This document shows, in pieces, positions 15,139-57,600 of a DNA stretch of 64,000 nucleotides. The stretch comes from the human T2T-CHM13v2.0 reference genome, Homo sapiens. The translations under genes and the position numbers were made by a program. The stretch lies in NCBI RefSeq assembly GCF_009914755.1, contig NC_060927.1. The stretch is one strand, 5' to 3'. Below the pieces are notes generated by a model, which had not been told where the DNA came from, searched no databases, and saw only the letters and a program-made list of their open reading frames with translations. Numbering within the stretch: the first letter of the stretch is position 1; the number at the start of each line of letters is the position of its first letter.

Positions 15139-18100
15139 AAGAAGGGTATGGGTTTATTTTACAGATCCAGCAAATAGCAGAGTGGTATAAATGAGAAATC
15201 ACATTTATCATTATTATTATTTTAGTGGCCCAGTCATTGGACCTCATAGCATCTATGATGTAATTAAAGTTCATGTATTGAAATTTTCCTCTTTGTGGAA
15301 TTTTTATGCTGTTAACATTGGTTGATATTTTCAGACAGGAAAACAAAACCAAACAAGATATCTCATGGAACTAATGCTGCAGTTCAACCATCATTAATAA
15401 CAGAAACCCAGACACACAGAAAATACATTTAGTCTCAGTGTTAGTAAGTGTGTAAATATAATTTCTATTACCACGAATGAGAATTACACATGTAAATCTT
15501 AGGTCAAGGCAGTCATTTTCCCCAAGTGTATAACACAACCTCAAGTACTGATCAATAAGCTGAAAAAAATGATGCCAATACCTAACAAAAATGTGAAATC
15601 TCAAATTTTCCCTCCACAGGAAACCTTTCAGTTACATTTCAAAACATAGCTGAACAACTATATCTCATGTAGCCCTAAACACTTGCTTCCAATGGAACTT
15701 GATCTTTTTCCTTTGTTCTATAACGGGAAAAAATTCCATCCTCTTTTTGAACATCAGCTCTAAGTATTTATGTGGTTAGCAACAATGCGATTCTAATAAG
15801 AAATCATTTTCAACATTCTCATTTTATTACAATTTAGAGTTTGCTATACATGTTTAAATTGCATTCAAAGAGCTTTAGCTACTTCCAAACCCAGTGGGGT
15901 TGGTGTTAAGGGTTTCTCACCCATCATAATGTGGCCCCTGACTGAGGAGAACAACGTAGCCATGGTGCCTGTATATACAGAGCTCATACTCCTTAGCTTC
16001 CAGATATTTCTCATTAAAAGAAGTCTCAAAATATTAATGATGTAGGTGATGGGAATTCTTCAGAGTAAACTGTCTTCCTCTATAAATTATCTCTTGGAAG
16101 TGTTCCTTTAATTTAAATCAAACACCCCATCTGATAATCACAGTCACTTAGCCTGACTACCTGTTATGCACCATGAATTTAAATGTACTCAGATACTTTG
16201 GTAATTGAACCAATATCAATGCATCACCATTTCAGTAATAAGAAACAACAGCTGGGAGAACAGTGGAAGGAAAAACATGTCATAAGACATATTTGATCTC
16301 ACTAGAGAAATAAGACTTTCGGCAATTTGCAAGTGAAATTTGGTTCTATGATTTAGGCTTTATTATTTCACAGCAAAAAAGAAATTAGCAAGCAAAGGGC
16401 CTAACAGGTTCTCTGGACAAACTCACACTGGTATAGAAATACTCCCAATAACAAATTCATTGGTATTCGTCCAGTATTTCAGCTGTACTCAGGTCTCCAG
16501 TGAATGGACCTCTGCCTATTTATTTTTAGAGGCATTTCCATGACTCTCTAAGCATCACAGACCTGATATTCAGGTGAATTTCCATTTCTTAATTTTATAC
16601 TATTAATTCTACTTACACCAATGCCCAAACCTCTATTCCAAATGACTTACTCCATCCCTTGGAAAATAGAAGTGGTTACAGAATCCTATCTTGTTAGTGA
16701 CTCAGCCCCTCCTTGCTTTAGACTAAAAACTCTCAATAAATTAGGTATTGATGGGACGTATTTCAAAATAATAAGAGCTATCTATGACAAACCCACAGCC
16801 AGTATCATACTGAATGGGCAAAAACTGGAAGCATTCCCTTTGAAAACTGGCACAAGACAGGGATGCCCTCTCTCACCACTCCTATTCAACATAGTGTTGG
16901 AAGTTCTGGCCAGGGCAATTAGGCAGGAGAAGGAAATAAAGGGTATTCAATTAGGAAAAGAGGAAGTCAAATTGTCTCTGTTTGCAGATGACATGATTGT
17001 ATATCTAGAAAACCCCATTGTCTCAGCCCAAAATCTCCTTAAGCTGATAATCAACTTCAGCAAAGTCTCAGGATACAAAATCAATGTACAAAAATCACAA
17101 GCATTCTGATACACCAACAACAGACAAACAGAGAGCCAAATCATGAGTGAACTCCCATTCACAATTGCTTCAAAGAGAAGAAAATACCTAGGAATCCAAC
17201 CTACAAGGGATGTGAAGGACCTCTTCAAGGAGAACTACAAACCACTGCTCAAGGAAATAAAAGAGGATACAAACAAATGGAAGAACATTCCATGCTCATG
17301 GGTAGGAAGAATCAATATCGTGAAAATGGCCATACTGCCCAAGGTAATTTATAGATTCAATGCCATCCCCATCAAGCTACCAATGACTTTCTTCACAGAA
17401 TTGGAAAAAACTACTTTAAAGTTCATATGGAACCAAAAAAGAGCCCGCATCGCCAAAGCAATCCTAAGCCAAAAGAACAAAGCTGGAGGCATCACACTAC
17501 CTGACTTCAAACTATACTACAAGGCTACAGTAACCAAAACAGCATGGTACTGGTACCAAAACAGAGATATAGATCAATGGAACAGAACACAGCCCTCAGA
17601 AATAACGCTGCATATCTACAACTATCTAATCTTTGACAAACCTGAGAAAAACAAGCAATGGGGAAAGGATTCCCTATTTAATAAATGGTGCTGGGAAAAC
17701 TGGCTAGCCATATGTAGAAAGCTGAAACTGGATCCCTTCCTTACACCTTATACAAAAATCAATTCAAGATGGATTAAAGACTTAAACGTTAGACCTAAAA
17801 CCATAAAAACCCTAGAAGAAAACCTAGGCATTACCATTCAGGACATAGGCATGGGCAAGGACTTCATGTCTAAAACACCAAAAGCAATGGCAACAAAAGC
17901 CAAAATTGACAAATGGGATCTAATTAAACTAAAGACCTTCTGCACAGCAAAAGAAACTACCATCAGAGTGAACAGGCAACCTACAAAATGGGAGAAAATT
18001 TTCACAACCTGCTCATCTGACAAAGGGCTAATATCCAGAATCTACAATGAACTCAAACAAATTTACAAGAAAAAAAACAAACAACCCCATCAAAAAGTGG

Positions 18101-54689: not shown

Positions 54690-57600
54690 AGAAGAGCTAA
54701 CTATCCTAAATATATATGCAACCAATACAGGAGCACCCAGATTCATAAAGCAAGTCCTGAGTGACCTACAAAGAGACTTAGACTCCCACACATTAATAAT
54801 GAGAGACTTTAACACCCCACTGTCAACATTAGACAGATCAACGAGACAGAAAGTCAACAAGGATACCCAGGAATTGAACTCAGCTCTGCACCAAGCGGAC
54901 CTAATAGACATCTACAGAACTCTCCACCCCAAATCAACAGAATACACATTTTTTTCAGCACCACACCTATTCCAAAATTGACCACATACTTGGAAGTAAA
55001 GCTCTCCTCAGCAAATGTAAAAGAACAGAAATTATAACAAACTATCTCTCAGACCACAGTGCAATCAAACTAGAACTCAGGATTAAGAATCTCACTCAAA
55101 ACCGCTCAACTACATGGAAACTGAACAACCTGCTCCTGAATGACTACTGGGTACATAACGAAATGAAGGGAGAAATAAAGATGTTCTTTGAAACCAACGA
55201 GAACAAAGACACAACATACCAGAATCTCTGGGATGCATTCAAAGCAGTGTGTAGAGGGAAATTTATAGCACTAAATGCCCACAAGAGAAAGCAGGAAAGA
55301 TCCAAAATTGACACCCTAACATCACAATTAAAAGAACTAGAAAAGCAAGAGCAAACACATACGAAAGCTAGCAGAAGGCAAGAAATAACTAAAATCAGAG
55401 CAGAACTCAAGGAAATAGAAACACAAAAAACCCTTCAAAAATTAATGAATCCAGGAGCTGGTTTTTTGAAAGGATCAACAAAATTGATAGACCGCTAGCA
55501 AGACTAATAAAGAAGAAAAGAGAGAAGAATCAAATAGACACAATAAGAAATGATGAAGGGGATATCACCACTGATCCCACAGAAATACAAACTACCATCA
55601 GAGAATACTACAAACACCTCTACGCAAATAAACTAGAAAATCTAGAAGAAATGGATAAATTTCTCGACACATACACTCTCCCAAGACTAAACCAGGAAGA
55701 AGTTGAATCTCTGAATAGACCAATAACAGGCTCTGAAATTGTGGCAATAATCAATAGCTTACCAACCAAAAAGAGTCCAGGACCAGATGGACTCACAGCC
55801 GAATTCTACCAGAGGTACAAGGAAGAACTGGTACCATTCCTTCTGAAACTATTCCAATCAATAGAAAAAGAGGGAATCCTCCCTAAATCATTTTATGAGG
55901 CCAGCATCATCCTGATACCAAAGCTGGGCAGAGACACAACCAAAAAAGAGAATTTTAGACCAATATCCTTGATGAACATTGATGCAAAAATCCTCAATAA
56001 AATACTGGCAAACCGAATCCAGCAGCACATCAAAATGCTTATCCACCATGATCAAGTGGGCTTCATCCCTGGGATGCAAGGCTGGTTCAATATACACAAA
56101 TCAATAAATGTAATCCAGCACATAAACAGAACCAAAGACAAAAACCACATGATTATCTCAATAGATGCAGAAAAGGCCTTAGACAAAATTCAACAACGCT
56201 TCATGCTAAGAACTCTCAATAAATTAGGTATTGATGGGACATATTTCAAAATAATAAGAGCTATCTATGACAAACCCACAGCCAATATCATACTGAATGG
56301 GCAAAAACTGGAAGCATTCCCTTTGAAAACTGGCACAAGACAGGGATGCCCTCTCTCACCACTCCTATTCAACATAGTGTTGGAAGTTCTGGCCAGGGCA
56401 ATGAGGCAGGAGAAGGAAATAAAGGGTATTCAATCAGGAAAAGAGGAAGTCAAATTGTCCCTGTTTGCAGACGACATGATTGTATATCTAGAAAACCCCA
56501 TTGTCTCAGCCCAAAATCTCCTTAAGCTGATGAACAACTTCAGCAAAGTCTCAGGATACAAAATCAATGTACAAAAATCACAAGCATTCTGATACACCAA
56601 CAACAGACAAACAGAGAGCCAAATCATGAGTGAACTCCCATTCACAATTGCTTCAAAGAGAAGAAAATACCTAGGAATCCAACTTACAAGGGATGTGAAG
56701 GACCTCTTCAAGGAGAACTACAAACCACTGCTCAAGGAAATAAAAGAGGATACAAACAAATGGAAGAACATTCCATGCTCATGGGTAGGAAGAATCAATA
56801 TCGTGAAAATGGCCATACTGCCCAAGGTAATTTACAGATTCAATGCCATCCCCATCAAGCTACCAATGACTTTCTTCACAGAATTGGAAAAAACTACTTT
56901 AAAGTTCATATGGCACCAAAAAAGAGCCCACATTGCCAAGTCAATCCTGAGCCAAAAGAACAAAGCTGGAGGCATCAGGCTACCTGAGTTCAAACTATAC
57001 TACAAGGCTACAGTAACCAAAACAGCATGGTACTGGTACCAAAACAGAGATATAGATCAATGGAACAGAATAGAGCCCTCAGAAATAATGCCACATATCT
57101 ACAACTATCTGATCTTTGACAAACCTGAGAAAAACAAGCAATGGGGAAAGGATTCTCTATTTAATAAATGGTGCTGGGAAAACTGGCTAGCCATATGTAG
57201 AAAGCTGAAACTGGATCCCTTCCTTACACCTTATACAAAAATCAATTCAAGATGGATTAAAGACTTAAACGTTAGACCTAAAACCATAAAAACCCTAGAA
57301 GAAAACCTAGGCATTACCATTCAGGACATAGGCATGGGCAAGGACTTCATGTCTAAAACACCAAAAGCAATGGCAACAAAAGCCAAAATTGACAAATGGG
57401 ATCTAATTAAACTAAAGAGCTTCTGCACAGCAAAAGAAACTACCATCAGAGTGAACAGGCAACCTACAAAATGGGAGAAAATTTTCGCAACCTACTCATC
57501 TGACAAAGGGCTAATATCCAGAATCTACAATGAACTCAAACAAATTTACCAGAAAAAAACAAACAACCCCATCAAAAAGTGGGTGAAGGACATGAACAGA

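What the first reader, a model, noticed from the sequence alone, without database searches (positions are those of the whole stretch)
17107..56592. The same ORF2-killing TTA>TGA stop in four of five L1s
Seen in sequence: KSQAF* (gcattcTGAtac) at 17107, 22893, 48768 and 56590, while L1-A keeps TTA at 13304-13306. Established: L1 proteins act mainly in cis, so a stop in the reverse transcriptase region is not expected to be passed on by a source element, and a non-CpG T>G recurring four times is unlikely. Inference: one null allele spread between neighbours after insertion, so conversion may act as a local L1-inactivating mechanism.
Basis: partly seen in the sequence, partly recalled or inferred. 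Interest (0 to 1): 0.72.

Follow-up and report, generated by a model that had tools for sequence, protein, structure and literature searches.

The report
Neighbouring L1 copies share a stop
Four separately inserted L1 retrotransposon copies lying within 42 kb of one human intron carry the same very rare stop codon, most likely because neighbouring copies have copied short stretches of DNA from one another.

Summary
The TGA version of the 18-mer occurs at window 17098, 22884, 48759 and 56581; L1-A has TTA. In the whole T2T genome, 15 of 8181 copies of this 18-mer carry TGA, and 4 of those are here.

The carriers are independent insertions. They have different truncation points, no flank homology, and C sits inside B with a 17-bp target-site duplication. 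They also belong to different subfamily stages, so simple descent from one stop-bearing source does not fit.

The five copies share other genome-rare variants in conflicting subsets. One double change occurs only in A and E genome-wide; another occurs in A, C and one other place.

A second rare change 72 bp downstream (I>R) is in all 8 L1PA copies across 192 kb. Carrier sets are contiguous and nested.

Best reading: short-tract non-allelic gene conversion between neighbours (about 0.7). This is a known process, so "L1-inactivating mechanism" overstates it: only one carrier has otherwise open frames.

Unexplained: several rare L1 alleles cluster regionally genome-wide.

The parts
8985..15137 (+). 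L1-A. Full-length older L1PA copy that keeps the 128-bp 5'UTR segment. Codon TTA at 13304-13306. Carries the I>R change (G at 13377) and 49977C-equivalent (C at 14511).
   Evidence: Self-BLAST. 15-bp target-site duplication AAGAAGGGTATGGGT at 8970 and 15139. 128-column gap in C and D relative to A. Alleles.
16723..18685 (+). L1-B, 5' part. This 5'-truncated copy is split by C. TGA at 17107-17109, I>R G at 17180, 49977C-equivalent at 18316.
   Evidence: B breaks off at the position where C starts.
24767..25011 (+). L1-B, 3' part with poly(A). It continues B after the C insertion.
   Evidence: The sequence resumes at ...ATATTCTCACTCATAGG after the repeated 17-mer.
18686..24749 (+). L1-C. Full-length copy inserted into B. 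ORF1 at 19590-20606 (338 aa). ORF2 at 20670-22895 ends at the shared TGA (22893-22895), and the frame then stays open to 24497. I>R G at 22966, 48581G-equivalent at 22706, 49977C-equivalent at 24101.
   Evidence: 17-bp target-site duplication AAAAAACCAAACACCGC at 18669-18685 and 24750-24766. ORFs. Alleles.
44566..50592 (+). L1-D. Full-length copy without a recognisable target-site duplication. TGA at 48768-48770, I>R G at 48841, 48581G, 49977C. Also has a 2-bp deletion at 46698, a +1 A at 49809 and a shortened ORF1.
54690..58431 (+). L1-E. 5'-truncated copy (3.7 kb) of an older subfamily stage than C and D. TGA at 56590-56592, I>R G at 56663, 48581G-equivalent at 56403, 49977C-equivalent at 57798.
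   Evidence: Older-type states at D-positions 47693, 48309, 48353, 49157 and 49905.
12063..12087 (+). 25-mer in A with a double change (D-positions 47538A + 47540G). It occurs only twice in the whole genome; the other copy is in E at 55350-55374.
   Evidence: 2 hits, both in this window.
55350..55374 (+). The same genome-unique 25-mer in E.
12197..12221 (+). 25-mer in A with a double change (D-positions 47672T + 47674C). It is shared with C (21786-21810) and one place on chr2.
   Evidence: 3 hits genome-wide.
21786..21810 (+). The same near-unique 25-mer in C.

Best explanation
The four stop-bearing L1s are independent retrotransposition events of somewhat different age. After insertion they exchanged short stretches of sequence with one another by non-allelic (ectopic) gene conversion.

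A T>G change that turned ORF2 codon TTA into TGA arose once, or arrived once, in one local copy. It was then copied into three neighbours. It probably travelled in tracts of tens to a few hundred bases that also cover the rare I>R change 72 bp downstream.

The same process produced the other rare variants shared by changing subsets of the local copies. It also produced the contiguous, nested ranges of four alleles along the chromosome.

Shown:
- the rarity and local clustering of the alleles;
- the independence of the insertions;
- the different subfamily backgrounds of the carriers;
- the conflicting (non-tree-like) sharing of variants.

Inferred:
- that the transfer was DNA-level conversion;
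- its tract lengths, direction and timing.
For: 1. Rarity and clustering. TGA is in 15 of 8181 copies genome-wide, 4 of them within 42 kb here. Other alleles at the same site do not cluster.

2. Independent insertions.
- Truncation points differ.
- A has a 15-bp target-site duplication; C has a 17-bp one inside B.
- In 224 kb, every match of at least 500 bp and 88% identity is L1 to L1, apart from one VNTR.

3. No private common source.
- Over 1091 bp, B-E differ from each other at 16-26 sites. They differ from an unlinked TGA copy on chrX at 17-21 sites.
- E has older-type states at 5 sites where C and D match unlinked young copies. B is older-type at 49013.
- The stop therefore sits on at least three backgrounds whose genome-wide members lack it.

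4. Conflicting sharing of rare variants.
- {A,E}: a double change with 2 hits in the genome.
- {A,C}: a double change with 3 hits.
- Other subsets: {C,D}, {C,E}, {B,D}, {A,B}, {C,D,E}, {A,C,D}.
- Among A, C, D and E, 30 informative sites split 19/8/3 over the three possible groupings. They fall in 12 runs, P=0.033.

5. Spatial order. Of the 8 L1PA copies covering the site in 224 kb, carriers are contiguous and nested:
- I>R in all 8;
- 49977C in A-F;
- TGA in B-E;
- 48581G in C-E.

6. Replicate on chr4. Two TGA copies lie 120 kb apart and differ at 151 of 1852 aligned sites.
- They also share 48895G and 48899T.
- They differ at 6 of 216 sites around the stop, against 143 of 1626 elsewhere.
- That is the lowest ratio of 120 pairs.

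7. Precedent. Conversion between neighbouring Alu elements falls off with distance (passages read in PMC8230782 and PMC6598467).
Against: - No outgroup or second assembly was available, so no pre-conversion state has been seen and the direction of transfer is unknown.
- Tract evidence inside the window is weak.
  - The 149-bp stretch that is invariant among B-E around the stop (48713-48861) is the longest in 2.2 kb. This ORF2 segment varies little anyway: the median local/overall divergence ratio is 0.72 over 120 pairs.
  - C and E differ at 7 sites in the 535 bp spanning the stop (my count), against 108 in 3720 overall. Once low local variability is allowed for, this is not significant.
- In the 1091 bp around the stop, window pairs show no more exclusive pair sharing than unlinked pairs. 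My count is 2 in 21 pairs; non-local pairs average 0.07 per pair. The exchanges must therefore be few and short.
- Neutral, symmetric conversion does not readily explain why I>R reached 8 of 8 copies while about 4-5% divergence between old and young copies persists. Some bias, or another process, may be involved.
- C shares younger-lineage states with the two unlinked young TGA copies (49442T with both, 49532C with both, 49872T with one). The stop could therefore have arrived with C by descent before spreading.
Confidence: 0.7

Rival explanations
1. Descent from one defective local source. A stop-bearing L1 lineage, mobilised in trans by other L1 proteins, inserted four times close to its own source ('local hopping'). 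The stop would then be shared by ancestry, not by exchange.
For: - Apart from the stop and I>R, B-E look like ordinary star-like members of their subfamily. Siblings from a source close to the family norm would look the same.
- C inserted into B itself.
- Two unlinked young TGA copies (chrX, chr7) share two further variants with each other, 47278G and 48089T. This hints that a stop-bearing lineage may have moved at least twice.
Against: - The carriers lie on different subfamily stages, and the mainstream members of those stages lack the stop. At least one horizontal transfer is needed anyway.
- The conflicting subsets {A,E}, {A,C,D}, {C,E}, {C,D} and {B,D} fit no single tree.
- I>R is also present in much older copies on both strands.
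- No mechanism for local L1 reinsertion is known to me (recalled; not searched as such).
- Random insertion of four progeny into 42 kb is about (42 kb / 3.1 Gb) cubed.
Confidence: 0.1
2. Patch repair from an RNA or cDNA template, or exchange coupled to insertion. Breaks in resident L1 copies, or the integration intermediates of newcomers, were repaired using transcripts or cDNA of a locally transcribed L1. All 8 copies lie inside the CFAP20DC transcription unit. This would give directional, site-limited transfer over a wider range than DNA-to-DNA conversion.
For: - I>R is fully penetrant over 192 kb in copies of both orientations and of ages from 94% to 98% identity to D. 49977C reaches at least A-F and further copies up to 60.58 Mb.
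- General homogenisation is absent.
- D and E lack target-site duplications.
Against: There is no direct evidence. Nothing in the sequence separates an RNA template from a DNA template.
Confidence: 0.1
3. Recurrent mutation. The same T>G arose independently in each copy at a hypermutable site, perhaps under a regional mutational process.
For: TGA, I>R and 48581G are changes to G before an A, and 49977C is a G>C change. About 11 other TGA copies exist, of very different ages (85-98% identity to D). These look like independent hits.
Against: - At 0.18% per copy, four of five is about 5e-11.
- The neighbouring copy A, and F, G and H, lack the change.
- Double changes that are unique in the genome are shared as well.
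- I saw no excess of the same change at other TA sites in these copies. This was read by eye, not counted.
Confidence: 0.02
4. Artefact or duplication. Either assembly or polishing homogenised the copies, or the copies are segmental duplicates.
For: Only one assembly was seen. Elsewhere, some clusters of rare alleles are plain duplications: the chr2:45.07/45.09 pair differs at 4 of 1091 sites, and chr3:19.86/20.36 at 13.
Against: - The copies differ by 2-5% overall, which is far from collapse.
- Their flanks share no homology.
- Truncation points and target-site duplications differ.
Confidence: 0.03

Closest known systems
Non-allelic gene conversion between neighbouring Alu elements
   Same: Independent insertions share non-diagnostic mutations more often the closer together they lie. 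Old inactive copies can overwrite younger ones. Source: passages read in PMC8230782 and PMC6598467, which cite Aleshin and Zhi 2010.
   Different: - Here the repeats are 2-6 kb L1PA copies.
- The range is tens to about 190 kb, not about 10 kb.
- One transferred allele is a stop in the reverse-transcriptase region.
- One allele is present in every copy of the neighbourhood.
Concerted evolution of closely linked paralogues by interlocus gene conversion (duplicated genes, segmental duplications)
   Same: Short tracts, mosaic sequences, gene trees that conflict along the sequence, and dependence on distance and identity (PMC6598467 passages).
   Different: These copies are interspersed insertions without flank homology. 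Overall divergence is not reduced. Only a few sites are shared.
L1-L1 homologous recombination (recombination-associated deletions, chimeric L1s) and conversion of older L1s by young ones
   Same: Homology-driven exchange between dispersed L1 copies. The missing target-site duplications of D and E would fit past L1-L1 recombination. The literature on this is recalled (Han et al. 2008; Myers et al. 2002; Vincent et al. 2003) and was not read here.
   Different: No deletion or rearrangement is demonstrated. The exchange seen is patch-wise.
Trans-mobilised defective L1 lineages
   Same: They could pass on an ORF2 stop by descent. L1 cis-preference and rare trans-complementation are recalled (Wei et al. 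2001), not read here.
   Different: Descent predicts a single tree and scattered insertion sites. Neither is seen.
Biased gene conversion and drive against break-prone motifs
   Same: This could explain why particular alleles reach every copy of a neighbourhood. The link to hotspot-motif erosion in repeats is recalled (Myers et al. 2010), not read here.
   Different: No motif was identified. 49977C is a G>C change, which GC-bias does not favour. This is a lead only.

Membership tests
Non-allelic (ectopic) gene conversion between dispersed repeats | The partners are separate loci (independent insertions), not duplicates of one locus | tested here: met
   Truncation points differ. Target-site duplications for A (15 bp) and C (17 bp, inside B). 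No flank homology in the window or in 224 kb.
Non-allelic (ectopic) gene conversion between dispersed repeats | The partners share derived variants that are rare or absent in the rest of the family | tested here: met
   Genome-wide counts: TGA 15 of 8181; I>R 25-mer 65; A/E double change 2; A/C double change 3. 0 of 37 scorable unlinked copies carry I>R.
Non-allelic (ectopic) gene conversion between dispersed repeats | Mosaic structure: the relationships between copies change along the sequence | tested here: met
   30 informative sites among A, C, D and E split 19/8/3 over the three groupings, in 12 runs, P=0.033. Many conflicting subsets.
Non-allelic (ectopic) gene conversion between dispersed repeats | A delimited tract of reduced divergence around the transferred variant | tested here: inconclusive
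   Window: a 149-bp invariant run among B-E and a C-E dip (7 sites in 535 bp, counted). Neither is significant given low local variability. The chr4 pair gives 6/216 against 143/1626, the lowest of 120 pairs.
Non-allelic (ectopic) gene conversion between dispersed repeats | The orthologous locus in an outgroup, or another haplotype, shows the state before conversion | not testable with these tools
   Only this one human assembly is held. No ape or pangenome sequence was available.
Non-allelic (ectopic) gene conversion between dispersed repeats | Sharing falls with distance | tested here: met
   Carrier sets are contiguous and nested along the chromosome. Genome-wide, the share of copies with a same-allele neighbour within 1 Mb is 40-56% for TGA, I>R, 48581G and 49977C, against about 1-8% expected.
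Segmental or tandem duplication of one L1 | Homologous flanks and the same element boundaries | tested here: not met
   only L1-L1 matches. Boundaries differ.
Single retrotransposing sub-lineage (descent from one source) | Members share all source variants, fit one tree, and differ only by private mutations | tested here: not met
   Carriers lie on different subfamily stages. Conflicting partitions.
L1PA3-short or younger L1PA (copies C, D) | Loss of the 129-bp 5'UTR segment | tested here: met
   C and D lack 128 aligned columns that are present in A. The feature is described in passages of bioRxiv 10.1101/429613. No reference consensus was available for a full subfamily assignment.

The most novel reading that the evidence does not exclude
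L1PA copies may carry 'regional dialects'. Particular rare ORF2 alleles spread directionally to essentially every L1PA copy in a neighbourhood of 0.04 to several Mb, whatever the copy's age or orientation, while the rest of the sequence stays diverged.

That would imply a biased, long-range ectopic conversion. Possible causes are spread of break-resistant alleles, or repair templated by a locally transcribed L1. The ORF2 stop would have hitch-hiked 72 bp from one such allele.

The local evidence is as follows:
- I>R is in 8 of 8 copies over 192 kb.
- The nested ranges are I>R, then 49977C, then TGA, then 48581G.

The genome-wide evidence is as follows:
- The share of copies with a same-allele neighbour within 1 Mb is 36/65 for I>R, 53/100 for 48581G and 56/100 for 49977C. 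About 5-8% is expected by chance.
- The other clusters also mix old and young backgrounds.
Probability: 0.25. Interest if true: 0.8.

Novelty: new member of a known kind. Interest (0 to 1): 0.58.

Why it matters
If neighbouring L1 copies routinely overwrite short stretches of one another, several things follow.

- Variants in an L1 copy are not all private mutations. Ages and subfamily assignments based on divergence are then biased, and source-to-progeny trees can be wrong.
- A dead resident copy can pass a disabling change to a newly arrived copy, and the reverse could also happen. A copy's coding state would then depend partly on its neighbours.
- Dense same-strand L1 clusters inside genes mark places where homology-driven exchange has been active. 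This is relevant to rearrangement risk.
- The regional clustering of several rare L1 alleles, if general, offers a direct way to measure the range, tract length and bias of ectopic conversion between interspersed repeats in complete genomes.

My four literature searches turned up no description of such region-wide sharing for L1. For Alu, a range of about 10 kb is described.

Tried and rejected
- **Segmental duplication.** Rejected: no flank homology.
- **Common subfamily marker.** Rejected for TGA (15 of 8181). Accepted for 50146T, which has 2581 hits and is an ordinary lineage marker.
- **Nearest relatives of D by BLAST against the genome.** Only 27 of 15961 candidates were scored, so the ranking is not informative. 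C was the best of those scored by a small margin.
- **Long gapped pattern to read haplotypes across three sites.** The tool does not allow it.
- **I>R plus 49047C as a marker of one retrotransposing lineage on chr8p and chr12.** Weakened, because 49047C also occurs in copies without I>R.
- **A shared frameshift in B and D.** Rejected. They are different +1 A insertions, at 49730 and 49809.
- **Invariant-run and local-dip tests around the stop in the window.** Suggestive but not significant once the low variability of this ORF2 segment is allowed for.
- **Exclusive pair sharing in the 1.09-kb panel.** No excess for window pairs. The excess only shows over 3 kb, and by genome-wide counts.
- **GC-biased conversion as a general explanation.** Shared variants go in both directions, and 49977C is G>C.
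- **Selection on a poly(A) signal.** I>R turns AATAAA into AAGAAA on the L1 sense strand. Seven of the eight copies are antisense to CFAP20DC, so I dropped this as a general cause.

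
Full report
**1. The observation**

The TGA form of the 18-mer is at window 17098, 22884, 48759 and 56581. The TTA form is at 13295. No shuffle gave a match.

The TGA is in the ORF2 frame. Read with X at the stop, copy C gives ...QKSQAFXYTNN..., and the X lies inside the Pfam reverse-transcriptase match.

**2. Anatomy of the window**

Self-BLAST and the junction sequences give five same-strand L1PA copies.

| Copy | Window coordinates | Form | Target-site duplication |
|---|---|---|---|
| A | 8985-15137 | full length | 15 bp |
| B | 16723-18685 and 24767-25011 | 5'-truncated, split by C | possible 6 bp |
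| C | 18686-24749 | full length, inserted into B | 17 bp |
| D | 44566-50592 | full length | none found |
| E | 54690-58431 | 5'-truncated | none found |

- There is no homology outside the L1s, either in the window or in the surrounding 224 kb, apart from one VNTR. These are separate insertions.
- A keeps a 128-bp 5'UTR segment that C and D lack. This is the known long/short difference within L1PA3 and younger families (passages of bioRxiv 10.1101/429613).
- In the 3.7 kb shared by A, C, D and E, private changes number 84 (A), 44 (E), 30 (C) and 27 (D). The copies therefore differ in age.

**3. Is the allele rare?**

- 8181 copies of the 18-mer carry T or G at the site. Only 15 carry G, and 4 of those are here.
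- The other 11 range from 85% to 98% identity to D, so most look like independent hits.
- Two of them lie 120 kb apart on chr4.
- The other two alleles at this site do not cluster.

Chance and a 'common subfamily marker' are both excluded.

**4. Descent or exchange?**

*Overall similarity.* In 1091 bp around the site, B-E differ from each other at 16-26 positions. They differ from an unlinked young TGA copy on chrX at 17-21 positions. They are ordinary members of their family, with no sign of a private common source.

*Different backgrounds.* The carriers sit on different subfamily stages.
- At 47693, 48309, 48353, 49157 and 49905, E has the state of older copies, while C and D have the state of unlinked young copies.
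- B is older-type at 49013.
- The mainstream lineage passed through these stages without the stop: 8166 copies have TTA. The stop must therefore have moved horizontally at least once.

*Other shared variants.* The five copies share other variants in subsets that fit no single tree.
- {A,E}: 47538A, 47540G, 47597A, 47970C, 48103T, 50199A
- {C,D}: 47291G, 48191A, 48889G
- {C,E}: 48388G, 50002C
- {A,B}: 48463G, 49672G
- {B,D}: 48862C, 50043G
- {C,D,E}: 48581G
- {A,C,D}: 47672T
- {A,C}: 47674C

*Genome-wide counts of these variants.*
- The A/E double change occurs only in A and E.
- The A/C double change occurs in A, C and one other place.
- Some others are commoner and scattered: 48889G has 100 hits, 50199A has 63 and 48463G has 362. 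These count for less.

*Spatial clumping.* Among A, C, D and E, the conflicting site patterns are clumped along the sequence: 12 runs, P=0.033.

*Limits.* Tract-level evidence in the window is only suggestive.

*The chr4 pair.* This is a cleaner replicate.
- The two copies differ at 151 of 1852 aligned sites.
- They share TGA plus 48895G and 48899T.
- They differ at 6 of 216 sites around the stop, against 143 of 1626 elsewhere. This is the lowest ratio of 120 pairs.

**5. A second allele, and the wider neighbourhood**

*The I>R change.*
- All five window copies, including A, carry a T>G change 72 bp downstream of the stop. It changes I to R and turns AATAAA into AAGAAA.
- Its exact 25-mer has 65 hits genome-wide.

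*The 224-kb region.*
- I fetched chr3:58.778-59.002 Mb.
- It holds 8 L1PA copies that cover the site: G (58.80 Mb, minus strand), A-E, F (58.97 Mb) and H (58.99 Mb).
- All 8 carry I>R. An older L1 (83% identical to D) does not.
- None of 37 scorable unlinked copies carries it.

*The second region-wide allele.*
- 49977C (W>C) is in A-F.
- It is also in further copies between 57.86 and 60.58 Mb.

*Spatial pattern.*
- Along the chromosome the carrier sets are contiguous and nested: I>R in G-H, 49977C in A-F, TGA in B-E, 48581G in C-E.
- No other site in the 3-kb zone is shared region-wide.
- Old and young copies remain 4-5% apart.

**6. Genome-wide pattern (beyond the finding)**

The table gives the share of copies that have a same-allele neighbour within 1 Mb.

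| Allele | Copies with such a neighbour |
|---|---|
| I>R | 36 of 65 |
| 48581G | 53 of 100 listed (114 in all) |
| 49977C | 56 of 100 listed (105 in all) |
| TGA | 6 of 15 |
| T>A at the I>R site | 14 of 40 |
| 48889G | 21 of 100 |
| 50199A | 6 of 63 |
| TCA | 4 of 47 |
| T>C at the I>R site | 4 of 47 |
| TAA | 0 of 12 |

- An L1 copy has on average 6.0 family neighbours within 1 Mb (chr1 sample). Chance therefore predicts about 1-8%.
- In 20 fetched I>R copies and 20 fetched 48581G copies, clusters mix older (about 95%) and younger (about 98%) backgrounds.
- Two clusters are plain duplications. The others are as diverged as unlinked copies.

I cannot explain why some alleles reach every copy of a neighbourhood. 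Biased conversion, or repair from a local transcript, are possibilities only.

**7. Verdict**

The shared stop is real and extraordinarily non-random. It is best explained by short-tract non-allelic gene conversion among closely spaced L1PA copies (confidence 0.7). The stop may have been carried along with the neighbouring I>R allele.

'Inactivating mechanism' overstates it.
- B and E were truncated on arrival.
- D has other breaks.
- Only C has otherwise open frames.

The process is of a known kind (passages in PMC8230782 and PMC6598467). What is unusual is its range and the full penetrance of one allele. Four searches found no description of this for L1; the papers behind L1-L1 conversion are recalled, not read.

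The main gap is the lack of ape and other human assemblies.

Noticed in passing
chr3:58,798,951-58,992,321 (window -39049 to 154321; loci L064-L079 plus the window): All 8 L1PA copies that cover the site in 224 kb carry the rare I>R change (G at D-position 48841). They include a minus-strand copy and copies only 94-96% identical to D. An older L1 (83% identical) keeps T. All 8 lie inside the CFAP20DC transcription unit.
   Followed up: partly
window 14511, 18316, 24101, 49977, 57798; also chr3:58,976,725 and copies at 57.86, 59.02, 59.40, 59.44 and 60.58 Mb: A second region-wide allele: 49977C (TGG>TGC in the Cys-rich C-terminal part of ORF2). It has 105 hits genome-wide. Dense clusters lie elsewhere: chr8:70.9-71.8 Mb (10 copies), chr10:58.5-60.3 Mb (8) and chr1:221.5-221.6 Mb (4).
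   Followed up: partly
genome-wide: Several rare L1PA ORF2 alleles, mostly transversions, are strongly clustered at scales from 10 kb to a few Mb. The clusters mix copies of different subfamily age. This is far above the 1-8% expected from L1 density. Cause unknown.
   Followed up: partly
L015 and L016 (chr4:58,534,098 and 58,654,222): A second pair of neighbouring TGA copies, 120 kb apart, in opposite orientation and differing at 151 of 1852 aligned sites. They also share 48895G and 48899T and show a local dip in divergence around the stop.
   Followed up: yes
window 18669-18685 / 24750-24766 and 24710-24749: C is nested in B with a 17-bp target-site duplication. After C's first poly(A) run come TCATG and an (AAAC)n-rich stretch before the duplication. 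This may be a short transduced or tail-derived segment.
   Followed up: no
window 44566 and 50592; 54690 and 58431: D and E have no recognisable target-site duplication. This would fit target-site deletion or past L1-L1 recombination that replaced one flank.
   Followed up: no
window 9763-9889 (A) against C and D: A keeps a 128-bp 5'UTR segment that C and D lack. This matches the long/short L1PA3 difference tied in print to escape from ZNF93.
   Followed up: partly
L023 (chrX:147,445,486) and L017 (chr7:105,188,597): Two unlinked young TGA copies without I>R share two further variants with each other (47278G, 48089T). Either a stop-bearing lineage moved twice, or these are markers of a younger subfamily that my panel lacks.
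   Followed up: no
chr8:86.14-86.93 Mb: A tandem array of about 12.19-kb units, with inverted blocks, repeats an L1 fragment that carries TCA at the stop site (about 50 copies listed).
   Followed up: no
chr3:58,913,223-58,914,439 (locus L071; outside the window): A VNTR with a period of about 47 bp. It is the only non-L1 self-match in the 224-kb region.
   Followed up: no
chr3:58,989,004-58,992,321 (loci L078, L079): Copy H has an inverted 5' piece (D-positions 2671-3710 on the minus strand) abutting its 3' part on the plus strand. This is the usual picture of a 5'-inverted L1 insertion.
   Followed up: no
L007 and L008 (chr1:12.45 and 12.73 Mb); chr2:45.067/45.085 Mb; chr3:19.86/20.36 Mb: These L1 pairs are near-identical over the stretch examined and look like segmental duplicates, not independent insertions. 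Such pairs inflate any count of local allele sharing.
   Followed up: partly
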